A stretch of 64,000 bases of DNA from Bacteroidales bacterium (GCA_030596125.1 JAUVKT010000003.1:108-64107), one strand, 5' to 3'; positions 40,649 to 52,078 are shown, counted from the first letter of the stretch. Numbers and translations: made by a program. The notes: generated by a model not told the origin, from the letters alone.

Positions 40649-41011
40649 ATGAAAAAACTAATAACAGAGAGATTTTTAGAGTTTGCAGCCATAATTGTTA
40701 AAATTGGAAAAAAACTTAACAAAACTTTTGAAGGCAGACATGTTTATGGTCAACTGTTTCGTTCCGGCACCTCTTCAGGTGCTAATTATGAAGAATCACA
40801 TTCTGCACAAAGTCCTCGGGATTTTATTCATAAAAGAGAAGTTGCATTAAAAGAACTTCGTGAATCTTTATTCTGGTTACGATTAATTGAGAAAGTAAAG
40901 TTTATACCTGAAAAAGACCCGGATTTAGTTTTTCTGTTAAAAGAAAATCAGGAGTTAATTAATATTATCGCAAAAGCAATTTCAACAATGAAGAAAAAAA
41001 ATAACATTTGA
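40649..41011 (+). CDS. Four-helix-bundle protein (23S rRNA intervening-sequence protein / Avd-like family)
   Basis: 120 aa. QLFRSGTSSGANYEESHSAQSPRDFIHKREVALKELRESLFWLRLI matches the family signature. Confidence 0.75.
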   Translation: MKKLITERFLEFAAIIVKIGKKLNKTFEGRHVYGQLFRSGTSSGANYEESHSAQSPRDFIHKREVALKELRESLFWLRLIEKVKFIPEKDPDLVFLLKENQELINIIAKAISTMKKKNNI

Positions 41012-41175
41012 CCTTTAACATTTGCCATCATACATTTGCCATTTGACATCATACATTTGCCATTTGCCATTTGCCATCATACATTTGACCTTTGACTTTT
41101 GACATCATACATTTGCCATTTGACCTTTGACATCATACATTTGCCATTTGCCATTTGACATCATACATTTGCCAT
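41005..41175. repeat. Heptamer tandem array (CATTTGC/CATTTGA/CCTTTGA/CATCATA), inverted relative to 40511-40626
   Basis: About 24 consecutive heptamers, read directly. The array starts inside the last codons of the four-helix-bundle ORF and ends 6 nt before the response regulator ATG. Confidence 0.9.
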
Positions 41176-41180
41176 ATATA

Positions 41181-41807
41181 ATGACTCGCTTTCTTATCAT
41201 AGACGATCATCCCATTGTGCGGAAAGGCCTTCGGCAGACACTCGAAGAACTACCCGGTGTAATTAAAATTACTGAAGCAGGTGATTCTCATGAAGGACTC
41301 AGGGTATTTCGGGATTGTGATTTTGATGTGGTATTGCTTGACATCAATCTTCCGGGAAAGAGCGGATTTGAAATACTTGCTGATATGAAATCAATGAAAC
41401 CGGACATACCGATATTGATCATCAGCATGTATCCTGAAGAGCAATATGCAATCAGGGCATTGAAGTCCGGAGCATCGGGTTACCTGACAAAAGCAATGGC
41501 AGCAGATGAGTTGCCTGTTGCAATACGAAAATTGACTTCAGGAGGCAAATATATCACCCCTTCTATTGCAGAAAAGATAGTTAATGGTTTTGATTCGCCA
41601 GGTCCAAAACATGATTTGCTTTCAAACAGGGAATTTGAGGTAATGATCTGTATTGCAAAAGGAAAGCCAATTAAGGAGATAGCATCCATGCTCTCAGTAA
41701 GTGAAAAGACAGTAAGCACTTATCGCAGCCGGATACTTGAAAAAATGGATATGCAATCAAATGCCGATATTGTTAAATATATGATCCGGGAGAATTTGAT
41801 CGATTGA
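41181..41807 (+). CDS. NarL/LuxR-family response regulator
   Basis: Receiver (LIIDDHPIVR, LLDINLPG) plus LuxR HTH (LSNREFEVMICIAKGKPIKEIASMLSVSEKTVSTYRSRI). Start trimmed out of the repeat array. Confidence 0.85.
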   Translation: MTRFLIIDDHPIVRKGLRQTLEELPGVIKITEAGDSHEGLRVFRDCDFDVVLLDINLPGKSGFEILADMKSMKPDIPILIISMYPEEQYAIRALKSGASGYLTKAMAADELPVAIRKLTSGGKYITPSIAEKIVNGFDSPGPKHDLLSNREFEVMICIAKGKPIKEIASMLSVSEKTVSTYRSRILEKMDMQSNADIVKYMIRENLID

Positions 41808-41827
41808 GTACTACCTGATTCGACCAC

Positions 41828-41896
41828 AACCTGTAAACCTGTAACCTGTAACCTGCAACTTGCAACTTGCAACTTGCAACTTGCAACTTGCAACTT
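41828..41896. repeat. Heptamer tandem array (CCTGTAA x3 then CTTGCAA x6)
   Basis: Read directly: aacctgtaaacctgtaacctgtaacctgcaacttgcaacttgcaacttgcaacttgcaacttgcaac. Confidence 0.9.
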
Positions 41897-42056
41897 TCTT
41901 CTTCTTCCTACTCCATACTTGTCAGGATTTCCCTACACCAAAATCAGGCTTCCCCGACAACCTATAGCACTCAATTCTTACATCCCGATTAAAAGGTATG
42001 GCATATCTTGCATAAGAAATTATTTCTCTGCAACAGAGTAGCGTAAACAATATTAT

Positions 42057-43991
42057 ATGAAACAGATGAAAAAACTAGTTAATATTTTAATGATTGAAGA
42101 TTTTCAGGATGATGCAGAACTGATAAGCTTTGAACTTGACAGGGGAAAAATTGATCATAAGATCACCAGGATCTGGGAAATTGATAAACTGGAAGATGAG
42201 CTTCAAAAACTGGTTTGGGACCTGGTCCTTTGTGACTATTACCTTCCGGGATTTAACGGGGCTGATGCGATAAGAATTATTCGGAAAAAAAGGCCCGATT
42301 TACCAATCATCCTTGTATCTGGAATGGTAGGGGACGAAAAGGCCGTTGAAGTTATGAAACTGGGAGCCAGGGATTATATTCTTAAAGACAATCTAAATCG
42401 TCTGATCCCTGCTGTTAAAAGAGAAGTTTATGATTTTAAACTACGGCAAACTCACTTAAATACAGAGAAAGCACTTGAGATACAGACTTCCCTTTCCCAG
42501 GTTTTCATTGATCATATTCCTGCCAGTGCCAGGCTTGTTGAGAAGAAAACTTATAGGGTATTATCAGCAAACAATTATGCACTGAAACATGGCACTATTC
42601 CGGGAAAGAAGTGCTATGAGTACAATCCTGGACAGAAAGAGCCATGCCCCAATTGTAAACTACATGATTTAGGAGAGGGGAACCGACACATTAATGCTGA
42701 GTCAAAAGAAAATGGAGATACCTATGATGAACATTGGGTAAATATAGATGAAAACCTGGCCCTTCATTACACCTTTAATATTACTGAAAGGAAACAATCT
42801 GAAAAAGAACTCATACAGGCGAAAGAGGAGGCAGAGGAGTCTGATCGCCTGAAATCAGCATTTCTTTCAAATATGTCACATGAGATCAGAACTCCAATGA
42901 ATGCTATTATTGGGTTTACCCAGATACTGAAAGATAATACGATAACAGATGATGAGCGGAATTCTTATATTGAGATTATTGAGCAGAGCGGAAACAACAT
43001 GCTGAATCTTCTTACAGATATTATAGAGTTTTCGCGTTTAGAGTCCGGAGACTATAAATTGAATAATGAAGAATTCCAGGTTGAAAAGTATATTGAGGAC
43101 CTGTTTGACCGGTTTAATAATGAATTGAAATTGAAAAACGAAAAGGATCTGCAACTCAGTCTTTCAAAACCTGAAGGCGATCAAATGGTTGTACTGAATC
43201 AGGATAAGAGTTGCCTTACCCAGATTTTGAACAGCCTGTTTCAAAACGCAAAGAAATTCACAAACCGGGGATCTATTGAGATTGGTTTCGAACTAATTGA
43301 AAAAGAGATTCGTTTTTATGTTAAGGACACCGGAATTGGTATTGAAAAGGAAAAACAGGAGATAATTTTTCAGCGATTCCGTCAGGTTGAAGAAGAAAAA
43401 ACAAGAACTTATAGTGGGGCAGGCCTTGGCCTGGCAATATCAAATAATATATTAGAGATCATGGGGAGTAAAATCTGGGTAGAATCTGAGTATGGAACCG
43501 GATCAACATTCTATTTTACACTTCCGGTTTACCGGATTGATAAAACTTCACATCCGGAGCATGCTGAATCTTCCGGAGAAGATCATGGTCAGGATACCCC
43601 TTTAATGTTAACCGGTAAAATAATCCTGATTGTTGAAGACGAAATTACAAATTACCTGGTTTTGGAAAATTTCCTGCAGAAATATAACCCCGAAATTCTT
43701 TGGGCCAAAAATGGTGAAACTGCCATAGATATTGTACATAGCAGGAAAGATATAGATCTGATTCTGATGGATATCCGGCTTCCTGGCATTGATGGAATGC
43801 AGGCCACCCGGACTATTCGCCAATTCAATACTAATATTCCTATAATTGCCCAGACAGCTTATGCATTACAGGAAGATATTGACAGAGCTTTCGAGTCTGG
43901 GTGTGATGATTTGATTACAAAGCCAATCAACTTTGAATTATTGATTGAAAAGATGCAAGTTTTTCTTTGCGTCTCTGCGTCTTTGCGGTAA
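42057..43991 (+). CDS. Hybrid sensor histidine kinase (REC, Cys-containing sensor region, HisKA, HATPase, REC)
   Basis: The N-terminal receiver is paralogous to that of 39461-40510. H-box SHEIRTPMNAIIGF, then GAGLGLAI and a C-terminal receiver (LIVEDE, LMDIRLPG). The last 9 codons lie in an octamer repeat. Confidence 0.8.
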   Translation: MKQMKKLVNILMIEDFQDDAELISFELDRGKIDHKITRIWEIDKLEDELQKLVWDLVLCDYYLPGFNGADAIRIIRKKRPDLPIILVSGMVGDEKAVEVMKLGARDYILKDNLNRLIPAVKREVYDFKLRQTHLNTEKALEIQTSLSQVFIDHIPASARLVEKKTYRVLSANNYALKHGTIPGKKCYEYNPGQKEPCPNCKLHDLGEGNRHINAESKENGDTYDEHWVNIDENLALHYTFNITERKQSEKELIQAKEEAEESDRLKSAFLSNMSHEIRTPMNAIIGFTQILKDNTITDDERNSYIEIIEQSGNNMLNLLTDIIEFSRLESGDYKLNNEEFQVEKYIEDLFDRFNNELKLKNEKDLQLSLSKPEGDQMVVLNQDKSCLTQILNSLFQNAKKFTNRGSIEIGFELIEKEIRFYVKDTGIGIEKEKQEIIFQRFRQVEEEKTRTYSGAGLGLAISNNILEIMGSKIWVESEYGTGSTFYFTLPVYRIDKTSHPEHAESSGEDHGQDTPLMLTGKIILIVEDEITNYLVLENFLQKYNPEILWAKNGETAIDIVHSRKDIDLILMDIRLPGIDGMQATRTIRQFNTNIPIIAQTAYALQEDIDRAFESGCDDLITKPINFELLIEKMQVFLCVSASLR

Positions 43992-44005
43992 AAAATTATA
44001 GACAT

Positions 44006-44683
44006 ATGAAAAATGCAGCAAAAACCAGGGAACAGCTTTTACACGAGTTAGAGAAATCAAATAATAGAATTGCTGAACTGGAAAAATCTGAAACCGGGCG
44101 CAAGCAGATGGAGAAAACGCTACAGGAAAGCGAACAAAGATTCCGAAAACTTTTAGAGAATGTGCCTACAGTTGCAGTGCAGGGATACAATTCCGATGGA
44201 GATATTCATTATTGGAATAAAGCAAATGAATCTATATATGGTTATACGGCAGATGAAGCTATCGGGAAAAATCTCATTGATCTGATCATTCCACCTGAAA
44301 TGAAGGAAGATGTGAAGAAAATAATCAGGAACGGTGCAAAAATTGGGGAAATGCCACCTGCTGCTGAAATAACCTTAATGCGCAAAGATGGAAAACCGGT
44401 CACTGTATTCACGAGTCATGCAATAGTACAACAATCCGGGAAAGAACCGGAATTGTTTTGTATTGATGTGGATTTGACCGAGCGCAAACAGGCGGAAGAA
44501 GAACTTGCACAATACCGTGAGCATCTTGAAGAACTTGTACTGGAACGAACTTCAGAACTGGAAGATAGAAATAAAAAACTTGAAAAATTCAATAAACTTT
44601 TTGTAGACAGGGAATTCAGGATTAAAGAGCTTAGGGACAGGGTTAAGGAACTGGAGAAAGCAGTAGGCAGTCCCGGAAAATAG
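44006..44683 (+). CDS. Stand-alone PAS sensor with conserved coiled-coil N- and C-caps (array member A)
   Basis: N-cap KTREQLLHELEKSNNRIAELEK, one PAS domain and C-cap ERKQAEEELAQYREHLEELVLERTSELEDRNKKLEKFNKLFVDREFRIKELRD. No output domain seen. Confidence 0.7.
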   Translation: MKNAAKTREQLLHELEKSNNRIAELEKSETGRKQMEKTLQESEQRFRKLLENVPTVAVQGYNSDGDIHYWNKANESIYGYTADEAIGKNLIDLIIPPEMKEDVKKIIRNGAKIGEMPPAAEITLMRKDGKPVTVFTSHAIVQQSGKEPELFCIDVDLTERKQAEEELAQYREHLEELVLERTSELEDRNKKLEKFNKLFVDREFRIKELRDRVKELEKAVGSPGK

Positions 44684-44753
44684 AAATCTCCGATTTCATA
44701 TTTTTCCGAGGATCCTCGAAAATTAATGCAAATCACAGATTTGCTAATTTTCG

Positions 44754-44796
44754 GGATAGGCAGTAGGCAGTAGGATAGGCATAAGCGATAAGCGCT
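44754..44796. repeat. Heptamer patch (GGCAGTA / GATAAGC units)
   Basis: Read directly: gataggcagtaggcagtaggataggcataagcgataagcgc. Confidence 0.8.
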
Positions 44797-44830
44797 TGAT
44801 TATAACATGAAAAGTATTGTTAGAAAAATA

Positions 44831-44937
44831 CATTTGCCATTTGCCATTTGCCATTTGACTTCATACATTTGACTTTTGACATCATACATTTGACATAAAA
44901 TTTGACCTTTGCCATTTGACATCATACATTTGACATA
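44831..44937. repeat. Heptamer tandem array (CATTTGC/CATTTGA/CATCATA family), third locus
   Basis: Same unit family and orientation as 41005-41175. Confidence 0.9.
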
Positions 44938-44957
44938 AAGAGCCTAAAGTTATTATA

Positions 44958-46370
44958 ATGGAAAACAGAGATAAAACCAAAACCAGGGAACAGCTTTTAA
45001 ACGATACAGTTCTTTTAAATGCTAAAATAGCCAGGCTGGAAAAAGATAAAGAGATATTTCAGGTAATTGCAGAAAACACAAGTGATAATATTGCAATTAC
45101 AAGTTTTGATCTGAAAGCTGAATATCTTTATGTTAGTCCTTCTGTAAAACATGTTCTTGACTATGATCCAAAGGATCTGGTTGGTAAATCATTTTTTGAT
45201 TTTATTCATCCTGATGATAAGAAAGTTCTGTTTCCATTATTAAAAAAGTATGTTAATCATAAAATAAAAAAGCTCCTATCCGGGAAAAATATTCCGGTTA
45301 GTAAAACAGTTGATTTTCGCTTTAGAAAGAAAAACGGAGACTGGTGTTTTATGCAAAGTGCTATAAATATAGTGGGAAATCAATTTATTTCAGTTACGAG
45401 AGACATCACCGAGCGTAAACGAGCGGAGAAAGCACTGAAGGAAAGTGAGAAACAGTTGCAAACTTTGATTGATGCTATGCCGGATTTTGTTTGTTTTAAG
45501 GATGGAGATGGATGCTGGCTCAAGGCTAATAATGCCTGCATCCGGATTTTCCAACTTGAGGATATAGACTATCGGGGAAAAACTGACTCTGAACTAGCTG
45601 AACTCAATAGCAATCTTCGGGGTACATTCCTTACGTGCAAAGAAACCGATACAAGAGCCTGGGAAGGGGAGGGTGTTTTTCACGGAGAAGAGACGGTTCC
45701 TGATCCAGATGGTTCAGTCCGGATTTACGATATGACCAAATTGGCTGTTCTTCAACCGGATGGTGAGCGTATTGGTCTTGTTGTTCTGGGACATGACATC
45801 ACCGAACGCAAACAGGCGGAGGAGATGCTGCAGGAAAGCGAGGATAGATTAAGACAAATTATTGATATTGTGCCACATATGATCTTCGCAAAAGACAGGA
45901 ACGGGCGTTTCATTATTGCAAATAAAGCCGTAGCTGACGGATGTGGAATAACTCCGGAAAAAATGGTTGGAAAGACACATCCGGAATTATTGGGAGCTAC
46001 TCCTGAACAATATGAGTCTTACCTGACAGATGACCGTGAAGTTATAGATAGTGGAAAATTGAAATTTATTCCCGAAGAAAATTATACTTTTCCTGATGGT
46101 CATAAGGTAATTATGGAAACAACCAAAATCCCGTTTACTTCCGCAGGAATACCTACTGTTCTGGGCGTATCAATCGATATCACCGACCGCAAACAGGCTG
46201 CAGAAGAACTTGCAAAACACCGTGAGAACCTGGAAGAACTTGTTCAGGAACGAACAAAAGAACTGGAAGATAAAAACATAAAACTTGAAAAATTCAATAA
46301 GCTTTTCGTTGACAGGGAATTCAGGATTAAGGAGCTTAGGGATAAGTTGAAGAAACTGGAGGGAAAGTAA
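44958..46370 (+). CDS. Stand-alone multi-PAS sensor with conserved caps (array member B)
   Basis: N-cap MENRDKTKTREQLL, three PAS-type segments each ending in DITERK, then the C-cap. No output domain. Confidence 0.7.
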   Translation: MENRDKTKTREQLLNDTVLLNAKIARLEKDKEIFQVIAENTSDNIAITSFDLKAEYLYVSPSVKHVLDYDPKDLVGKSFFDFIHPDDKKVLFPLLKKYVNHKIKKLLSGKNIPVSKTVDFRFRKKNGDWCFMQSAINIVGNQFISVTRDITERKRAEKALKESEKQLQTLIDAMPDFVCFKDGDGCWLKANNACIRIFQLEDIDYRGKTDSELAELNSNLRGTFLTCKETDTRAWEGEGVFHGEETVPDPDGSVRIYDMTKLAVLQPDGERIGLVVLGHDITERKQAEEMLQESEDRLRQIIDIVPHMIFAKDRNGRFIIANKAVADGCGITPEKMVGKTHPELLGATPEQYESYLTDDREVIDSGKLKFIPEENYTFPDGHKVIMETTKIPFTSAGIPTVLGVSIDITDRKQAAEELAKHRENLEELVQERTKELEDKNIKLEKFNKLFVDREFRIKELRDKLKKLEGK

Positions 46371-46424
46371 GAAGAAGTATGTAGTAGTAGGAAAGGCAAA
46401 AGGCATAGGGCGTAGGGGAAAAGG
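46371..46424. repeat. Degenerate heptamer patch after the C-cap
   Basis: Read directly: gaagaagtatgtagtagtaggaaaggcaaaaggcatagggcgtagggg. Confidence 0.7.
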
Positions 46425-46456
46425 AAGTGTCCCGGGTAAAATAGATAGATTAAAAA

Positions 46457-47107
46457 ATGATGGAAAACAGAGACAAGACCAAAACCAGGGAACAGCTCTT
46501 AAAAGAGTTGGAGAAAGCAGACAAAAGAATTGTCGAACTGGAAAAATTCAAAACCGAACGGCTGTTTACTGAACAGGCAGGCAAGCAGGTAGAGGAGGAA
46601 ATCCGAAAATTATCTAAAGTGGTGGAGACTACTTCGGAAGCAGTTGTGATAACAGATATGCAGGGAATGATAGAATATGTAAACCAGGGACTTCTTACGC
46701 TTGGCAGTTATGAAGATGATAGCTTAATAATTGGGAAATCGGTCTTTATGTTCAGCACTGCAGAAGGCGAAAATCAATTAAAAGAAAAAATTATTCCAAC
46801 AATATTGGCTAAAGGAAAATGGAGAGGAGAGGTTCCTGTTAAACGAAAAGATGGTTCTATCTTTCCTGCGGAGATGATTTGTTCGCATATATTGGATGAA
46901 GAAGGTAAACCAAAATCTTTATTATCTCAATATCAAGATATCACAAAGAGAAAGAAAGCAGAAGAAGAACTCCGGGAAAAAATGAATGAACTTGAAGCTT
47001 TTTATCGTGCTACTCTGGGTCGGGAGGGTCGTGTTATTGAGCTAAAACAAGAGGTAGATGGGTTGTTGGAACAACTTGGTGAAAATAAGAAATATACAAA
47101 TATTTAA
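46457..47107 (+). CDS. Stand-alone PAS sensor with N-cap and diverged C-cap (array member C)
   Basis: MENRDKTKTREQLLKELEKADKRIVELEK, one PAS domain and the tail ELEAFYRATLGREGRVIELKQEVDGLL. Confidence 0.7.
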   Translation: MMENRDKTKTREQLLKELEKADKRIVELEKFKTERLFTEQAGKQVEEEIRKLSKVVETTSEAVVITDMQGMIEYVNQGLLTLGSYEDDSLIIGKSVFMFSTAEGENQLKEKIIPTILAKGKWRGEVPVKRKDGSIFPAEMICSHILDEEGKPKSLLSQYQDITKRKKAEEELREKMNELEAFYRATLGREGRVIELKQEVDGLLEQLGENKKYTNI

Positions 47108-47120
47108 TAGAGGGGAGATC

Positions 47121-48242
47121 ATGTTTCAAAAAATAGAATTTTTTGATGGGCAGAAGCCGGAAGGATGGCAACCATTTCTGAAGGAGTTGAGTAAAGACAA
47201 TGCTAAAGGCATTCTCCTTTTTGTTGGGGAAGAGACACCGTTTGATTACAAACAGCTGCAACCTCTGCTAAAAAAGATGGATATTAAAGTAATTGGAGCC
47301 GTTTTCCCTGAAGTGATCTATAACGGTTCGTTATATAAACAGGGAGTAGTGGGTTGCGCTTTCCGGTCCCCGGTATTTTTTGAAGTGATTAAAGATCTGA
47401 GCAAATTTAAAGCCAGTTTTTCAGAAGATTTTATTTCAGAAAATACCCGCACACTTATGATCTTTACTGATGCATATACAGATAATATTCCGCTGTTTAT
47501 CGAAACTTTATATGAAAAGAATTTAAAAGAAACAGCGTTTATCGGAGGTGTTGCAGGCAGTATAAAAAGTATTAATCAACTATCTTTGTTTACTTGCGAT
47601 GACTTATTCGCAGGAGGGGCTATCATCGCTGCTGTTGAGGACTATATGTCGGTGGGAATAAATCATGGTTTGCAACCTGTTTCTGAACCGGCTATTGCCA
47701 GTAGTGTGGATAGAAATATATTAAAATCAATTAATTGGGAACCGTCTTTTGATTATTATAAAAGGATCGTTGAGAAAGATGATGGTATCAGGTTAACAAC
47801 AGATAGTTTACTTGAAGTTGCTAAATCGTATCCTCTTGGAATGCTGAAATATGATGGTGAGATCATTTTGCGTGTTCCTGTAAGTGTTGGCGAAGAAAGA
47901 AGTCTTTTATTTGCCAGTGAAATACCTGAAAACTCTGTATTGGTGGTTACAAAAGCCTACCATGACAAATTAATAGTAGCCGCAGGTATAGCCACAGACC
48001 AGGCTAGAATTGCTTTTGAGAGCAAAAAGAATATATCCCCTGGCAAAGTTTTAATCGTAGACTGTCTTGCCAGAGCAATGTTTTTAGAAGACAGATTGAA
48101 TGATGAGTTAAAGATAATTGCAGACAAAGCAGGAGGTGACGTTTTAACATTTGGATTTTTAAGTTTAGGAGAAATTGCTTCTACCGGGGATAAATATATT
48201 GAACTGTACAATAAGACCATAGTTGTTGGTATGGGGGAATAA
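47121..48242 (+). CDS. FIST-domain sensory protein (FIST_N plus FIST_C)
   Basis: 374 aa. The C-terminus FGFLSLGEIASTGDKYIELYNKTIVVG is typical of FIST_C. Start trimmed to MFQKIEFF, 13 nt after the preceding stop. Confidence 0.65.
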   Translation: MFQKIEFFDGQKPEGWQPFLKELSKDNAKGILLFVGEETPFDYKQLQPLLKKMDIKVIGAVFPEVIYNGSLYKQGVVGCAFRSPVFFEVIKDLSKFKASFSEDFISENTRTLMIFTDAYTDNIPLFIETLYEKNLKETAFIGGVAGSIKSINQLSLFTCDDLFAGGAIIAAVEDYMSVGINHGLQPVSEPAIASSVDRNILKSINWEPSFDYYKRIVEKDDGIRLTTDSLLEVAKSYPLGMLKYDGEIILRVPVSVGEERSLLFASEIPENSVLVVTKAYHDKLIVAAGIATDQARIAFESKKNISPGKVLIVDCLARAMFLEDRLNDELKIIADKAGGDVLTFGFLSLGEIASTGDKYIELYNKTIVVGMGE

Positions 48243-48281
48243 ATTATAAACCGGACTGACCATTAAAAAAATATATTGAAC

Positions 48282-49493
48282 ATGAAACAAATGAGATCTT
48301 CTCTTCAGAACCTCAGTATTTCTTACGAGATTGCGCTTGCAATTGGTAACAGTTTGAACCTGTCAGAAATGCTTCATGATGTTATTCACAAGATGGTGCA
48401 TAAAACGAATGCCTATCATGGAATTATCTGGGTCAACAATGGAGAGAAACTCCAACCGGTAGCAAGTGCGGGAATTAATATAAAAGATGTGCAGGCACAA
48501 GGTGAAAGAATTGGTTGCCGGGATGTTTTCAATCAAATAATAAAAAGAGAGCAATTTGTACTTAGATGCAAAGATGACAAAGATTTTTTGCAGTACTGTA
48601 CTGTCCTGTCAGAAAAAGAAGAATCAGTATTGATTGTGCCTGTAGCCAATGTGGCGATTATTTATCTGGTCTATTCCCGCAGGGATATCGCAGATAAACC
48701 TTTAGCAAATATGATTACCGGTCTTTCTAAGAAGTTAGGCATTGCTATAGAAGCTTGTATGGATCATAAGAACATTATTAATGAAGTGCAGGTGAGAGTG
48801 AAAGCAGAAAAGGAACTAACGAAGAAAACAGAGCAACTGATTTCCGGAGAGAAGGAACTTCAAAGGCTTTATGGAGAATCTGAACAAGCCAGAAAATCAC
48901 TGCTTAGCATCCTGGAAGATGTTGAGCAAAAAGAGGAGGCTCTGCGGGAAAAAGAGATCTATACCAGGGCGATTATTGAACAGTCTCCAATCAGTATCCA
49001 GATTTTCAATAAGAATGGTTTAACTATAGATACAAACAGTGCCTGGGGAGAATTGTGGCAGCTTCCATCTGACGAATTGATCGGGAAATATAATGTTCTC
49101 GAGGATGAATATGCACGGGAGATTGGGGCGTTAGATAATATTGAGAAAGCCTTTAAAGGCGAGACTTCTTTTCCATTCGAGATAGAATACGATCCTGTAA
49201 AAAGTAGAAATCCTGGTCGAAAGCGATATATAAAATGTGTTGTTTTTCCTATAAAAAATAAAAATGGAGAAATGAACAGAGTCGTATTAATGCATGAAGA
49301 TATCACCGAACGTAAACAGGCTGCAGAAGAACTTGCAAAACACCGTGAGAACCTGGAAGAACTTGTGCAGGAACGAACAAAAGAACTGGAAGATAAAAAC
49401 AAGAAACTTGAAAAATTTAATAAGCTTTTCGTTGACAGGGAGTTCAGGATTAAGGAGCTTAGGGATAAGCTGAAGGAGGTGGAGGGAAAGTAA
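48282..49493 (+). CDS. GAF-like plus PAS sensor with conserved C-cap, no N-cap (array member E)
   Basis: N-terminal GAF-like region, coiled coil with SLLSILEDVEQKEEAL, one PAS domain, then a C-cap nearly identical to that of member B. Confidence 0.7.
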   Translation: MKQMRSSLQNLSISYEIALAIGNSLNLSEMLHDVIHKMVHKTNAYHGIIWVNNGEKLQPVASAGINIKDVQAQGERIGCRDVFNQIIKREQFVLRCKDDKDFLQYCTVLSEKEESVLIVPVANVAIIYLVYSRRDIADKPLANMITGLSKKLGIAIEACMDHKNIINEVQVRVKAEKELTKKTEQLISGEKELQRLYGESEQARKSLLSILEDVEQKEEALREKEIYTRAIIEQSPISIQIFNKNGLTIDTNSAWGELWQLPSDELIGKYNVLEDEYAREIGALDNIEKAFKGETSFPFEIEYDPVKSRNPGRKRYIKCVVFPIKNKNGEMNRVVLMHEDITERKQAAEELAKHRENLEELVQERTKELEDKNKKLEKFNKLFVDREFRIKELRDKLKEVEGK

Positions 49494-49537
49494 GAGGAAG
49501 TATGTAGTATGTAGTATGTAGTATGTAGTAGGAAGCC
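49494..49537. repeat. Heptamer tandem array (AGTATGT x4)
   Basis: Read directly: gaggaagtatgtagtatgtagtatgtagtatgtagtaggaagcc. Confidence 0.9.
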
Positions 49538-49570
49538 AAATGTCCGGGTAAATAGTTAGACTAAAAAAAG

Positions 49571-52078
49571 ATGGAAAACAGAGACAAGACCAAAACCAGG
49601 GAACAGCTCTTAAAAGAGTTAGAGAAAGCAAATAAAAGAGTTGCTGAACTGGAAAAATTTGAAAACGAGAGTAAGCAAGCGGAGGTGGCGTTGAAGGAGA
49701 GCGAGGAGAAATACAGAACTCTCGTCGAGTATTCCTCTGATTTAATCTTTCAAATTGATAATAATGGGATTGTTTTATCAGTAAACCAGGCCGCGGCTGG
49801 AGTCCTGGGTAGAAAACCTAAGGAGATATCGGGGAAAAATATTTCTGAATTATTTCCAGAGGAAATTAACAAGAGCTATAAGCGGGACTTGAAGAAAGTT
49901 TTTGAAACAGGTGAAGAATCAATCAAAGAAGGGACCATACCTGTCGGAGAACATACAATGTGGATCAGTACATCCCTTAATCCAAAAAGAGACAGTGCCG
50001 GTAAAATAATGTGGGTATTTGGCGTAAGCAGGGACATCACTGAACGCAAGCGGGCAGAGGAAGCTTTAGAAGAAAGTAATGAAAATTTTCGACAGGTTGT
50101 GTCTAGTATTACAACTATTATTTGGAAAGCCGAGGTTGGAAAGAACGGAGCTTTTGAAAACACTTATATTTCACCCGTTGTAGATGAATTGCTGGAATTA
50201 CCACCAGGAACAATAAAAAATGACTGGGAAATATTTTTCAGCTATATAAAACCCGAATATCTGGAACAGGTAAATAATGCTTTCAGAGAAGCAATTAAAT
50301 CGCCGGGTAAAGTAATTAATTGCGAATACGAAGTATTAAAAGAAAATGGACGAACAGCCTGGTTTCATTCAAAAGGCAGAATTTTTAGAAAAAATGAGAA
50401 ATTGTATGTTTTCGGCTCTACGAATGATATCACCGAGCGAAAAGTAGCAGAGGTGGCGCTTCAGGAAAGTGAGAAAAAATATAGAGACCTGTTTGAAAAA
50501 TCAGAAGATGCTTCTTTAGTAATTCATAATGGGAAATTTATTGATTGTAATCAGGCTACAATTAATATGCTGGGTTATAATAGTAAAGATGAGCTTTTAA
50601 TGATGCACCCTTCAGAATTGTCACCGGAAAAACAGGCGGACGGAAAATTATCATTTACGAAAGCAAATGAAATGATGAAAATAGCTTTTAGAAATGGCAG
50701 TCATCGCTTCGAATGGATTCATAAGAGATTTAATGGAGATGGTTTCCCTGTGGAGGTGTTGTTAACCGCTATTTCTACTGATGAAGAAAATCAGATTATT
50801 CACGCGGTTCTGCGGGATATCACTAAACGCAATCAGACTGAGGAATTGCTTCAGAAAAGCGAAGAAAAATATAGATTATTAGCAGATAATTCAATGGATG
50901 CGATCTGGCAGATGGATAAGAAATTAGTCTTTACATATATTAGTCCGTCCGTAAATAATATTTTGGGATACACAGTTGATGAGTGGGTTGGAACCAGATT
51001 ATCTCAACATACCAGTACAAAAGAATTTTTTAAAATGTCAAGAAAAGCATTATACGCAATTAAAAATTTTAAGAAATTTAAACACCTCACCTTTGAAGCT
51101 GTGATGTTAAAAAAAGATGGAAATGAAGTTCCTATTGAAATCACCGGAAGATTGTTATTGAATAAGAAAGGGTTGCCAATTGGATTACAGGGAACTACCC
51201 GTGATATTACTGAACGCAAGAAGGCTGATAAGGAACTTAAAAAGCACCGTCAACATCTGGAAGAAACTGTAAAACAGAGAACAGGAGAGATTGAAAACAA
51301 ATCAAAAAAACTGGAAGAATCACAAAACGCACTAACTTTTTTGCTTGAGGATGTGAATGATGCAAGATTTGAACTTGAGAAAACAAATCTTCAGTTGCAA
51401 ATAGCCAATAAGGAGATGGAGTCTTTTACATACTCCGTATCCCATGACCTGAGAGCTCCTCTCAGAGCCATCCTGGGTTTTTCAAATAAATTTACAGAGA
51501 TCTATGGAGGAAAAGTGGACGAAGAGGGAACACGCCTGTTAAATGTGATAAATGCGAACACAAAAAAAATGGGTATGCTTATTGATGATCTGCTTGCTTT
51601 TTCAAGGATGGGAAGATCTGATATGCGCAAGGTAAAAGTTGACATCAAAGGATTAGCACATGAAACCTGGAACGAGCAGAAAGATCAGTATGCAGGCAGA
51701 AATATTAAACTGACTATCAAGGATATGCCTGTTGCAAAAGGTGACCGGAATATGCTCAGGCAGGTCCTGTTCAACCTGCTGTATAATGCAGCAAAATTTT
51801 CAAAATACAAGGAAGTATCAATAATTGAAGTGGGAGCCAAAACTAGAGATTCGGAAACCATTTATTATGTAAAAGATAATGGAGCAGGCTTTGATATGAG
51901 ATATAAGGATAAGTTATTCCAGGTATTTCAGCGTTTGCATAGCGACCGTGAGTTTGAGGGAACCGGTGTTGGACTGGCCATTGTAAAGAAAGTTATTGAT
52001 ATGCACGGCGGAAAGGTCCGGGCAGAATCAGAACCTGACAAAGAGACAACTATTTACTTCTCGCTTCCTATAGCCTGA
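49571..52078 (+). CDS. Multi-PAS sensor histidine kinase with the same N-cap (array member F)
   Basis: N-cap MENRDKTKTREQLLKELEKANKRVAELEK, four to five PAS segments, signalling helix (HRQHLEETVKQRTGEIE...LTFLLEDVNDA), H-box SHDLRAPLRAILGF and HATPase (GTGVGLAIVKK). Confidence 0.85.
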   Translation: MENRDKTKTREQLLKELEKANKRVAELEKFENESKQAEVALKESEEKYRTLVEYSSDLIFQIDNNGIVLSVNQAAAGVLGRKPKEISGKNISELFPEEINKSYKRDLKKVFETGEESIKEGTIPVGEHTMWISTSLNPKRDSAGKIMWVFGVSRDITERKRAEEALEESNENFRQVVSSITTIIWKAEVGKNGAFENTYISPVVDELLELPPGTIKNDWEIFFSYIKPEYLEQVNNAFREAIKSPGKVINCEYEVLKENGRTAWFHSKGRIFRKNEKLYVFGSTNDITERKVAEVALQESEKKYRDLFEKSEDASLVIHNGKFIDCNQATINMLGYNSKDELLMMHPSELSPEKQADGKLSFTKANEMMKIAFRNGSHRFEWIHKRFNGDGFPVEVLLTAISTDEENQIIHAVLRDITKRNQTEELLQKSEEKYRLLADNSMDAIWQMDKKLVFTYISPSVNNILGYTVDEWVGTRLSQHTSTKEFFKMSRKALYAIKNFKKFKHLTFEAVMLKKDGNEVPIEITGRLLLNKKGLPIGLQGTTRDITERKKADKELKKHRQHLEETVKQRTGEIENKSKKLEESQNALTFLLEDVNDARFELEKTNLQLQIANKEMESFTYSVSHDLRAPLRAILGFSNKFTEIYGGKVDEEGTRLLNVINANTKKMGMLIDDLLAFSRMGRSDMRKVKVDIKGLAHETWNEQKDQYAGRNIKLTIKDMPVAKGDRNMLRQVLFNLLYNAAKFSKYKEVSIIEVGAKTRDSETIYYVKDNGAGFDMRYKDKLFQVFQRLHSDREFEGTGVGLAIVKKVIDMHGGKVRAESEPDKETTIYFSLPIA

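What the first reader, a model, noticed from the sequence alone, without database searches (positions are those of the whole stretch)
46177..49668. A ~375 bp gene-junction repeat (C-cap, heptamer spacer, N-cap) present twice at about 90 percent identity
Segments 46177-46555 and 49301-49668 are near-identical at the nucleotide level by eye. Each spans the last ~190 nt of one gene, the stop codon, a heptamer patch, the shared motif GTCCCGGGTAAAATAG / GTCCGGGTAAATAG, a ribosome-binding region and the first ~100 nt of the next gene.

A third, more diverged junction lies at 44466-44690. There the heptamer patch is largely gone and GTCCCGGAAAATAG has been brought into frame as the C-terminus (..AVGSPGK*).

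Conservation of silent positions and of the non-coding spacer argues for recent unequal crossing-over or gene conversion. That process would shuffle sensor cores between constant junctions.
Basis: seen in the sequence. Interest (0 to 1): 0.65.

Follow-up and report, generated by a model that had tools for sequence, protein, structure and literature searches.

The report
Duplicated gene junction in sensor array
A 380-base "gene junction" (end of one sensor gene, spacer, start of the next) really is present twice in a cluster of bacterial PAS sensor genes, and close relatives show that one copy sits where a single kinase gene elsewhere is split in two, so it is a footprint of the recombination that reshuffles these sensors.

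Summary
Window 46176-46557 (J2) and 49299-49668 (J3) align over 383 columns at 86.7% identity. The coding caps are 92-94% identical. The sensor domains on all four sides share no DNA similarity and are at most 30% identical as protein. Each copy holds a C-terminal coiled-coil tail, the stop codon, a heptamer patch, about 35 conserved upstream bases and an N-terminal coiled coil.

Synonymous divergence between J2 and J3 is about 0.19. Other cap pairs, within or between genomes, give 0.31-1.0. The junction was therefore copied as one DNA piece into a new context, but not very recently.

J2 and J3 are direct repeats around a conserved PAS-FIST-GAF block. In a relative 90-93% identical in DNA, the PAS domain left of J3 and the kinase right of it form one open reading frame. 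The window carries 1127 extra bases there, bounded by DITERK linker codons. A second relative shows another in-frame fusion. Seven FIST loci keep an intact enzyme at this position.

The best reading is ectopic recombination or conversion at conserved linker and cap DNA, which splits and re-joins modular sensor kinases. Continuing homogenisation and unequal crossing-over are not shown. Cap function, possibly docking, is inferred. Interest is moderate.

The parts
44006..44683 (+). PAS_A: N-cap copy 0, one PAS domain, C-cap copy J1. No output domain.
   Evidence: ORF and Pfam. AF2 model with pLDDT 95: helix 8-51, PAS core, helix 158-221.
44021..44096 (+). N-cap copy 0 (KTREQLLHELEKSNNRIAELEKSE). 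83-91% nt identity to the N-caps of J2 and J3.
   Evidence: (family D4).
44471..44656 (+). C-cap copy J1. 85% and 83% nt identity to J2 and J3; pS 0.31 and 0.49.
44672..44756 (.). Element of about 85 nt with inverted ends (CCCGGAAAAT / ATTTTCGGG), set between two GCAGTAGGCAGT repeats of the heptamer array. It supplies the last codons (SPGK*) of PAS_A. Dispersed in the metagenomes and absent from an X6 relative.
   Evidence: joint 44671->44796; depth 100-240 with many different flanks.
44958..46370 (+). PAS_B: N-cap copy 1 (first 50 nt 90% identical to J2/J3, then diverged), three PAS domains, C-cap of J2.
46176..46557 (+). Junction repeat J2. C-cap coding 46176-46370 (stop 46368-70). Spacer 46371-46459, holding the heptamer patch 46377-46428 and motif 46429-46444. 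N-cap coding 46460-46557.
   Evidence: Unitig support.
46460..47107 (+). PAS_C: N-cap copy 2, one PAS domain, short GRE-type tail (..FYRATLGREGRVIELKQEVDGLLEQLGENKKY). The tail is orthologous to the gene upstream of FIST in relatives.
47121..48242 (+). FIST-domain gene, the anchor of the conserved block between J2 and J3.
   Evidence: Pfam. 88 homologues at 27-85% identity, most of them 373 aa.
48276..49493 (+). PAS_D: conserved GAF-like 'head' plus coiled coil (aa 1-220), one PAS domain, C-cap of J3. Relatives carry a kinase or HD-GYP output in its place.
49299..49668 (+). Junction repeat J3. C-cap coding 49299-49493. Spacer 49494-49570, holding (AGTATGT)x4.6 at 49499-49530 and motif 49542-49555. 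N-cap coding 49571-49668.
   Evidence: Unitig support.
49335..50461 (+). 1127-nt segment (C-cap tail, spacer, N-cap, PAS1, PAS2) present in the window and absent from relative L085. Bounded by DITERK-linker codons at 49299-49334 and 50426-50461.
   Evidence: blastn of L085 on the window. P0090 is one ORF. Linker sequences.
48938..50454 (+). 1517-nt segment skipped, in frame, in a 225-nt contig of run X6. The GAF head is fused directly to PAS3.
   Evidence: (record 19, sides 107 and 118 nt, no letters between).
49571..52078 (+). HK_E: N-cap copy 3, four PAS domains, HisKA and HATPase_c. The only kinase among the capped PAS genes (44006-52078).

Best explanation
Setting. The window holds an array of modular cytoplasmic sensor genes in a probable Bacteroidales MAG from cold-seep sediment. 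Each kinase-less PAS protein ends in a 64-residue helical 'C-cap': a signalling-helix-like stretch followed by ..LEKFNKLFVDREFRIKELRDK.KELE. Most genes of the array start with a ~30-residue helical 'N-cap' (..KTREQLLKELEK..R.AELEK).

Shown:
- J2 and J3 are two copies of one gene junction (C-cap, stop, heptamer microsatellite, ~35-nt upstream region, N-cap). It was copied as a single ~380-nt DNA tract into a second, unrelated context about 0.2 synonymous substitutions per site ago.
- J2 and J3 now lie as direct repeats around the conserved block: PAS_C core, FIST gene, GAF head and PAS domain of PAS_D.
- At J3 the copy coincides with a gene split. In close relatives the sensor part left of J3 and the kinase part right of it are one polypeptide.

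Inferred:
- The mechanism is ectopic recombination or gene conversion. It is nucleated by the conserved DNA that encodes PAS-PAS linkers (DIT[ED]RKQAEEEL...) and the caps. This is the same process that gives the FIST-adjacent head a different tail in every relative.
- Whether the window gained the 1127-nt segment or the relative lost it is not resolved.
- Functionally, the caps are probably coiled-coil dimerisation or docking helices. They would let kinase-less sensors stay coupled to the N-capped kinase encoded next to them.
For: Extent, identity and silent-site conservation of J2 and J3:
- Measured.
- The four flanks are unrelated.
- J2/J3 are much the closest pair among 10 C-caps from 6 genomes.

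Split versus fused gene:
- L085 is 92.7% and 89.9% identical in DNA. It aligns to 48964-49334 and to 50426-52068 with a 36-nt overlap in the linker, and it is one ORF.
- An X6 contig joins 48937 to 50455 in frame.

FIST loci:
- All seven (L081-L084, L096-L098) have FIST followed 3-4 nt later by a 672-1245-aa protein.
- That protein has the same 195-270-aa head (52-78% identical to PAS_D over 192-365 aligned residues) plus a kinase or HD-GYP output, with different middle modules.

Age of the junction type:
- A related MAG (L086) has C-cap, GTA/purine heptamers, the conserved TAGAC.AA.A..AAAGATG stretch and N-cap.

The caps as protein modules:
- 610 clusters at 50% identity match the C-cap at E<=1e-10.
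- About 146 of the best 150 match full-length and end within ~12 residues of the protein's C-terminus.
- The C-cap is attached to PAS, REC, GAF, HAMP and membrane domains.
- AF2 models both caps as single long helices with pLDDT above 90.
- Foldseek finds FixL PAS dimers and short LOV proteins with N- and C-terminal helices.

Assembly:
- Both junctions are tiled by exact unitigs in three runs.
Against: - The direction of the J3 event is open. pS between the window and L085 (0.18 left, 0.26 right) equals pS between J2 and J3 (0.19), so the clock cannot order the events.
- N-capped multi-PAS kinases resembling HK_E exist as intact genes elsewhere (L004, P0099, P0102). The fused L085 form could therefore be a deletion.
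- No donor locus for PAS1-PAS2 was found.
- The linker repeats at the L085 breakpoint share only about 11 exact bases. Classical RecA recombination there is doubtful, and a microhomology or template-switch route is equally possible.
- No recombinant or excised form between J2 and J3 was seen. The data could not have shown one: k=31 unitigs break inside the 53-nt identical run, and no long-read run was found.
- Cap-cap docking rests on architecture and adjacency only. About 5 of 10 C-cap genes in my loci are followed by an N-cap gene.
Confidence: 0.6

Rival explanations
1. Ongoing concerted evolution. The caps and spacer of all junctions in the array are repeatedly homogenised by gene conversion, or the array expands and contracts by unequal crossing-over.
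For: - J2 and J3 are far closer to each other than any other cap pair.
- J1 is closer to J2 (pS 0.31) than to J3 (0.49) although J2 and J3 are sisters.
- N-cap 1 is mosaic: 90% identical to J2/J3 for 50 nt, then unrelated.
- One site that distinguishes J2 from J3 (49367) carries the J2 base in a J3 unitig of run X1.
- Exact runs of 53, 51 and 34 nt are long enough for homologous recombination today.
Against: - pS of 0.19 is not 'recent', and the differences are evenly spread with no long identical tract beyond expectation.
- J1 and N-cap 0 resemble the caps of another genome (L086a and the L086 N-cap) about as much as they resemble their own paralogues. Caps therefore evolve mostly vertically.
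- The two L086 C-caps are at pS 0.46.
- The J1-J2 versus J1-J3 asymmetry is explained by about 6 derived changes on the J3 branch.
- The 49367 variant can be a k=31 graph switch inside the 34-nt identical run.
- Unequal crossing-over would duplicate the cores, and these are all different.
Confidence: 0.2
2. Cassette mobility through the junction. The block between J2 and J3 (PAS_C core, FIST, PAS_D core, plus one junction) entered as, or can leave as, a circle by homologous recombination within the junction. Junctions would then act like attachment sites for sensor cassettes.
For: - J2 and J3 are direct repeats that exactly bracket a block whose inner part (46982-48940) is conserved at 90% or more in many organisms of the same samples.
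- That inner part also has other flanks there: depth is 150-900 against 5-30 for neighbouring sequence, with loose ends at 46982 and 48939-48949.
- The repeats keep 51-53-nt exact runs.
Against: - No circular or deleted form was observed.
- The widely shared part of the block ends inside the genes (46982, 48940), not at the junctions.
- In seven relatives the FIST block sits in other contexts without J-type junctions.
- No recombinase gene lies in the array.
Confidence: 0.1
3. No special DNA history. The two junctions look alike only because the cap proteins and the translation-start region are under strong purifying selection, or because of an assembly error.
For: - The caps are strongly conserved protein modules across phyla.
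- dN/dS between J2 and J3 is about 0.15.
Against: - Silent sites are conserved far more between J2 and J3 than between any other caps of equal protein similarity.
- Non-coding spacer ends align.
- Independent unitigs reproduce both junctions.
- The longest shared exact run (53 nt) is shorter than the k-mers and reads that assemblers resolve.
Confidence: 0.05

Closest known systems
Domain shuffling during lineage-specific expansion of histidine kinases (Alm, Huang and Arkin 2006, PMC1630713)
   Same: Paralogous sensor kinases in one genome carry new combinations of upstream PAS/GAF modules. No transposon is involved. That paper notes that the mechanism is unknown.
   Different: Here the exchanged unit and its borders are visible at nucleotide level. 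A 380-nt gene junction was copied between unrelated contexts. A 1127-nt indel is bounded by linker codons in a relative 90-93% identical. The result is a split gene pair rather than a new single kinase.
Ectopic (interlocus) gene conversion between paralogues in bacteria
   Same: A short tract (~380 nt) of high identity with sharp borders lies between otherwise dissimilar genes, and silent sites are conserved.
   Different: The tract spans a stop codon, an intergenic spacer and the next start codon, so it transfers a gene boundary. There is no evidence that it is recurrent or ongoing.
Signalling helix (S-helix) of sensor proteins (Anantharaman, Balaji and Aravind 2006; cited from memory)
   Same: The first ~35 residues of the C-cap (..HRE.LEELV.ERT.ELE..) look like the coiled-coil linker with the ERT signature that joins PAS or HAMP domains to DHp. 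There are weak NCBIfam matches to that region of TorS, NarX and NarQ.
   Different: An S-helix connects two domains. Here it is followed only by a 25-residue conserved helix (F..LF..REFRIKELRD.VKELE) and the stop codon. No Pfam, NCBIfam or PDB entry covers that part.
Short LOV / stand-alone PAS proteins with N-terminal A'alpha and C-terminal Jalpha helices (PpSB1-LOV, W619_1, PF5-LOV, MrLOVe)
   Same: A PAS core flanked by an N-terminal and a C-terminal helix with no effector domain. These are Foldseek matches to the PAS_A model.
   Different: They are sequence-conserved families of their own, sit on many non-PAS inputs (REC, GAF, HAMP), and lie at gene junctions in arrays.
STRR-type heptanucleotide tandem repeats of filamentous cyanobacteria (from memory)
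   Same: Intergenic tandem arrays with a 7-nt period. J3 has 4.6 perfect AGTATGT units.
   Different: A different phylum and different unit sequences. Here they are a fast-changing filler inside an otherwise conserved junction.

Membership tests
Gene-conversion / ectopic recombination tract | Paralogous segment with identity far above that of its flanks, and sharp borders | tested here: met
   Identity of 0.9-1.0 inside against 0.3-0.45 alignment background outside. The change occurs within about 10 nt at 46176 and about 46555. The flanks give no blastn hit.
Gene-conversion / ectopic recombination tract | Silent-site and non-coding similarity, i.e. not explained by protein constraint | tested here: met
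   pS of 0.19 against 0.31-1.0 for all other cap pairs. The spacer ends align.
Gene-conversion / ectopic recombination tract | Paralogues within a genome closer than positional orthologues between genomes | tested here: inconclusive
   No sister genome with both junctions was found. L085 lacks J3 altogether. L086 junctions are at pS 0.45-0.62 from the window's.
Gene-conversion / ectopic recombination tract | Recurrent or ongoing exchange (patchwork tracts, polymorphic recombinants) | tested here: not met
   Differences are evenly spread and the longest exact run is 53 nt. There are no joints between J2 and J3 in the Logan contigs, although these could not resolve them. No long-read run was found.
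Gene fission (split histidine kinase) | The two adjacent genes correspond to one ORF in close relatives | tested here: met
   P0090/L085..VVLMHEDITERKQAVEKLRESEKKYRDLF.. is continuous. X6 fusion. Seven FIST loci have head and output in one protein.
Gene fission (split histidine kinase) | The two products still work together | not testable with these tools
   This needs an interaction or phosphorylation assay. Only adjacency and the helical caps are known.
Unequal crossing-over / tandem duplication | The repeated unit includes the genes between the repeats (duplicated cores) | tested here: not met
   The cores on all four sides are at most 30% identical as protein and unalignable as DNA.
S-helix signalling linker | ~40-residue coiled coil with an ERT-type signature after a sensor domain | tested here: met
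   The sequence ..HRENLEELVQERTKELE.. is present. AF2 models one continuous helix over residues 158-221 of PAS_A. Weak matches to the TorS, NarQ and NarX linker.
S-helix signalling linker | Connects the sensor to a downstream output domain in the same protein | tested here: not met
   The stop codon follows 6-21 residues after the GRE/DRE motif in every locus examined and in about 146 of 150 representatives.
Integron-like or site-specific cassette array | Recombinase gene and short attachment sites at cassette borders | tested here: not met
   The eight proteins of 41127-52078 carry only REC, GerE, HisKA, HATPase, PAS and FIST domains. The borders are 380-nt coding repeats, not att-like sites. 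The rest of the genome was not searchable.
Heptamer tandem repeats (STRR-like) | Tandem 7-nt units in intergenic DNA | tested here: met
   TRF finds 49499-49530 with period 7, 4.6 copies and 100% matches. Many other arrays occur in 39-45 kb.

The most novel reading that the evidence does not exclude
The C-cap/stop/spacer/start/N-cap unit may be a natural 'split-and-zip' device. Recombination at linker and cap DNA could cut a multi-PAS sensor kinase into a kinase-less sensor subunit and a kinase subunit, or fuse them again. The two subunits would re-associate through their complementary coiled-coil caps. The array would then behave as one non-covalent, re-configurable sensor whose composition differs between strains. 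The direct repeats J2 and J3 would also allow the FIST block to be lost or gained as a cassette.
Probability: 0.2. Interest if true: 0.75.

Novelty: new variant of a known kind. Interest (0 to 1): 0.5.

Why it matters
Domain shuffling is recognised as the main source of new bacterial sensor kinases, but how it happens at the DNA level is poorly documented (PMC1630713 leaves the mechanism open).

This locus catches the process between close relatives. The same sensor and kinase parts occur as one gene, as another fusion, and as two genes separated by a copied junction. Breakpoints fall on the conserved linker codons.

The locus also draws attention to a large C-terminal helical module with no family annotation. 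At least 610 clusters at 50% identity carry it, on PAS, REC, GAF and HAMP inputs. It ends 'output-less' sensors.

If the caps mediate docking, these arrays would be natural split kinases. That would be useful both for understanding signal integration and for engineering modular sensors.

Tried and rejected
- Exact-protein look-up of PAS_B in other assemblies: nothing on record.
- Metagenome scan with PAS_C: only distant relatives at 27-42% identity.
- Read-level search for J2 x J3 recombinants: all runs are held as k=31 Logan contigs, which break in the 53-nt identical run. The many short 'joints' (sides of 20-30 nt) come from other organisms' PAS linkers and were discarded. Only the 225-nt X6 contig (sides 107 and 118 nt) was kept.
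- Nanopore runs: none found.
- Apparent 'swapped spacers' in X6 (loose ends at 44958 and 49571): rejected as cross-mapping between N-caps that are 92-95% identical.
- The 49367 G/T variant: possibly a conversion-type polymorphism, but it can also be a graph switch within the 34-nt identical run. Left open.
- Molecular-clock ordering of the J3 event against the L085 split: inconclusive.
- Pfam, NCBIfam, PDB-sequence and full-text motif searches for the caps: no family and no paper.
- Sigma-70 and terminator scan: only a weak terminator-like hairpin in the J1 spacer and none in J2 or J3. It is of limited value for a probable Bacteroidales genome.

Full report
**What is in the sequence**

Between 41 and 52 kb the window carries a signalling island on the + strand:
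- A LuxR-type response regulator (ORF 41127-41807).
- A hybrid histidine kinase (42057-43991).
- PAS_A (44006-44683; one PAS domain).
- PAS_B (44958-46370; three PAS domains).
- PAS_C (46460-47107; one PAS domain).
- A FIST-domain gene (47121-48242).
- PAS_D (48276-49493; GAF-like head, coiled coil, one PAS domain).
- HK_E (49571-52078; four PAS domains, HisKA, HATPase_c).

PAS_A, PAS_B and PAS_D have no output domain. They end in the same 64-residue 'C-cap': DIT(E/D)RKQA.EELA.(H/Y)RE.LEELV.ERT.ELED.N.KLEKFNKLFVDREFRIKELRD... PAS_A, PAS_B, PAS_C and HK_E begin with an 'N-cap' (..KTREQLL.ELEK...R.AELEK). PAS_C ends in a shorter relative of the C-cap (..FYRATLGREGRVIELKQEVDGLLEQLGENKKY). The window is 39.5% G+C. 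It recurs in cold-seep and marine-sediment metagenomes. Sources label its nearest protein homologues 'Bacteroidales bacterium'.

**Check of the observation**

The repeat is real and sharply bounded.
- blastn aligns 46176-46557 (J2) with 49299-49668 (J3) over 383 columns at 86.7% identity, E 2e-130.
- The sliding profile jumps from alignment background (0.3-0.45) to 0.9-1.0 at the DIT(E/D)RK codons. It dips over the heptamer patch, recovers for the last ~35 nt of the spacer and the N-cap, and falls back after ..ELEKF.
- The C-cap is 94% identical in DNA (pS 0.18, pN 0.03). The N-cap is 92% identical (pS 0.21). Together pS is 0.19 with a 95% interval of 0.11-0.31.
- The 120 codons on each of the four sides are at most 30% identical as protein and give no DNA match.
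- The spacer is as described. J3 holds 4.6 perfect AGTATGT units, and J2 holds a degenerate patch. Both then have GTCC(C)GGGTAAA(A)TAG and an A-rich stretch before the ATG.
- The third junction keeps only the C-cap (83-85% identity) and the first 50 nt of the next N-cap. PAS_A ends ..AVGSPGK* through GTCCCGGAAAATAG.
- Logan unitigs from three runs reproduce both junctions exactly, with single unitigs running from cap through spacer into cap. The longest exact run shared by J2 and J3 is 53 nt. A mis-assembly is therefore unlikely.

**Is it DNA-level kinship or protein constraint?**

I compared ten C-caps from six genomes.
- J2-J3 is by far the closest pair (pS 0.18).
- J1 against J2 and J3 gives 0.31 and 0.49.
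- The window against the related MAG L086 gives 0.45-0.62.
- The two L086 caps give 0.46 against each other.
- Cloacimonadota, Victivallaceae and Mariniphaga copies give 0.63-1.0 (0.53 for the two Cloacimonadota copies against each other), although the proteins are 72-83% identical.

Silent sites and the ends of the spacer are therefore conserved specifically between J2 and J3. Because all four flanks are unrelated, a plain duplication cannot explain this: it would have copied the flanks too. A ~380-nt tract that includes a stop codon, an intergenic spacer and a start codon must have been copied non-reciprocally into a second context.

It does not support 'very recent'. A dS of about 0.22 is a substantial age. 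The differences are evenly spread, and nothing indicates continuing homogenisation.

**What the repeats bracket**

J2 and J3 are direct repeats around PAS_C core, FIST and PAS_D core.
- The FIST protein has many homologues, most of them 373 aa.
- In all seven loci fetched (L081-L084, L096-L098), FIST is followed 3-4 nt later by a 672-1245-aa protein. Its first 195-270 residues are the PAS_D head (52-78% identical over 192-365 aligned residues). It then continues into different PAS or GAF modules and a kinase, or in L096 an HD-GYP output.
- In three of these loci (L081, L083, L096) the sequence upstream of FIST encodes the PAS_C-type GRE tail.
- PAS tail, FIST and head-plus-enzyme therefore form a conserved trio. 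The window is the only case in which the third member is cut short by a C-cap.
- In the metagenomes the inner part of the block (about 46982-48940) has 10-100 times the depth of its surroundings and many alternative continuations. This fits a conserved core joined to variable modules.

**The split at J3**

The closest homologue of the kinase half of HK_E is P0090, 87% identical as protein. It starts with the PAS domain of PAS_D and runs through a single linker (..VVLMHEDITERKQAVEKLRESEKKYRDLF..) into PAS3, PAS4 and the kinase.
- Its contig, L085, aligns to 48964-49334 at 92.7% identity and to 50426-52068 at 89.9%, with a 36-nt overlap in the DITERK linker.
- Relative to L085 the window has 1127 extra nucleotides: the C-cap tail, spacer, N-cap, PAS1 and PAS2. 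They are bounded by two DITERK-linker codon stretches that share only about 11 exact bases.
- A 225-nt contig of run X6, 91-95% identical, joins 48937 to 50455 with no intervening letters and in frame (..EDVEQKEEAL|QESEKKYRDLF..). It fuses the head directly to PAS3.
- Three structural alleles of one kinase locus therefore exist among relatives about 90% or more identical. The left border of J3 coincides with one of the breakpoints.
- Direction is open. Silent divergence between the window and L085 (0.18 and 0.26) equals that between J2 and J3. N-capped multi-PAS kinases like HK_E exist intact elsewhere. The FIST outgroups favour 'head plus enzyme in one protein' as the ancestral state.

**The junction type is older than this genome**

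L086 (another MAG whose proteins sources label Bacteroidales) has an array with these members:
- An N-capped PAS kinase.
- A REC-PAS-C-cap protein.
- A dCache-PAS protein with a GRE tail.
- An N-cap-multiPAS/GAF-C-cap protein.
- After a 217-nt spacer, an N-capped PAS kinase.

Its spacer begins with the same GAAGAAGTA(A/T)GTAGTA heptamers and ends with TAGAC.AA.A..AAAGATG, as in J3. A Cloacimonadota contig (L004) shows the same order of C-capped sensors followed by an N-capped kinase. In my loci about half of the C-cap genes are followed by an N-cap gene.

**What the caps are**

- The C-cap matches 3266 cluster representatives at E<=1e-3 and 610 at E<=1e-10. About 146 of the best 150 match full-length and end within about 12 residues of the protein's C-terminus.
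- It follows PAS, REC (about 230-aa proteins), GAF, HAMP/DUF3365-like and membrane domains.
- In every locus examined the stop codon comes 6-21 residues after the GRE/DRE motif.
- No Pfam, NCBIfam or PDB sequence covers its second half or the N-cap, and no paper contains the motif. Its first half resembles the signalling helix of TorS, NarX and NarQ.
- AF2 on a 52-sequence alignment models PAS_A with pLDDT 95.2 and pTM 0.72, as helix 8-51, PAS core, helix 158-221. The best structural matches are FixL PAS dimers and short LOV proteins with N- and C-terminal helices.
It was not tested.

**Most likely mechanism**

Shown:
- One junction tract was copied between unrelated contexts.
- The locus is structurally polymorphic among close relatives, with breakpoints in linker codons.
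- The FIST head carries different tails in every relative.

Inferred:
- The conserved DNA that encodes PAS-PAS linkers and caps acts as short homology for ectopic recombination, conversion or template switching. There are ten DIT.R(K/N) linkers in five genes and a 58-nt repeat family at 66-78% identity.
- This moves modules and can move a whole gene boundary, converting one kinase into a sensor-only protein plus a kinase, or the reverse.
- With exact runs of 51-53 nt, J2 and J3 should still be able to recombine and delete the FIST block. That prediction needs long reads.

**Comparison with what is known, and verdict**

Domain shuffling during kinase family expansion is established, and its mechanism was left open (PMC1630713). 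Interlocus gene conversion is also well known. New here are three things: the nucleotide-level view of a transferred gene junction, the split/fused polymorphism at that junction, and the link to two cap families with no family annotation. I class it as a new variant of a known kind, with moderate interest (0.5).

**Limits**

- All sequencing runs were available only as k=31 contigs.
- No sister genome with both junctions was found.

Noticed in passing
window 44672-44756 (flanked by GCAGTAGGCAGT at 44660-71 and 44760-71): An ~85-nt element with inverted ends CCCGGAAAAT/ATTTTCGGG and an internal 12-nt palindrome CGAGGATCCTCG sits inside the heptamer array. It provides the last codons (SPGK*) of PAS_A. 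In the metagenomes it has 5-10 times the local depth with many different flanks, i.e. it is a dispersed MITE-like repeat. An X6 relative lacks it. Its left end is the 'shared motif' of J2 and J3.
   Followed up: partly
window 46982-48940; loci L081-L084, L096-L098: A conserved trio: a gene ending in the ..FYRATLGREGRVIELKQEVNELLEQLGKNKKY tail, then FIST, then a ~220-aa GAF-like head with coiled coil. The head is fused to a different output in every relative (HisKA kinases of two types, multi-GAF HD-GYP, extra REC domains). All tails diverge at the same point (..EDV.QKEEAL | .ESEEKYR..).
   Followed up: partly
window 49299-49490; proteins: The C-cap is a large C-terminal module with no family annotation. 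610 clusters at 50% identity match it at E<=1e-10. They include ~230-aa receiver-domain proteins whose only other part is this helix (e.g. P0282, P0283, P0297).
   Followed up: partly
window 44830-44859 and other CATTTG(C/A) arrays (40990-41192, 44816-44940): The CCATTTG heptamer array reaches summed depths of 1000-2400 in the sediment metagenomes, against about 20 for neighbouring unique sequence. The same array sequence must therefore occur at very many loci or in many organisms. Two such arrays create perfect TTGACA-N16/18-TATAAT matches directly upstream of the regulator and PAS_B starts.
   Followed up: no
window 49367: A G/T difference that distinguishes J3 from J2 appears as the J2 base (T) in a 307-nt J3 unitig of run X1. 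It is either a conversion-type polymorphism or a de Bruijn graph switch inside the 34-nt identical run.
   Followed up: partly
L086 4600-5000 and 9760-9980: In a related MAG (proteins labelled Bacteroidales by sources) the stop codons of both C-cap genes are followed by 200-400 nt of purine-rich, heptamer-like repeats (GAAGTAA, GTAGTAA, GAGATGA ...). These place stop codons in all three frames.
   Followed up: no
window 48243-48285: The FIST stop and the PAS_D start are about 33-40 nt apart here, against 3-4 nt in all seven relatives. Contigs in X1 and X6 skip 48248-48284 and have 4 other letters there instead. The window therefore carries a small insertion between the two genes.
   Followed up: no
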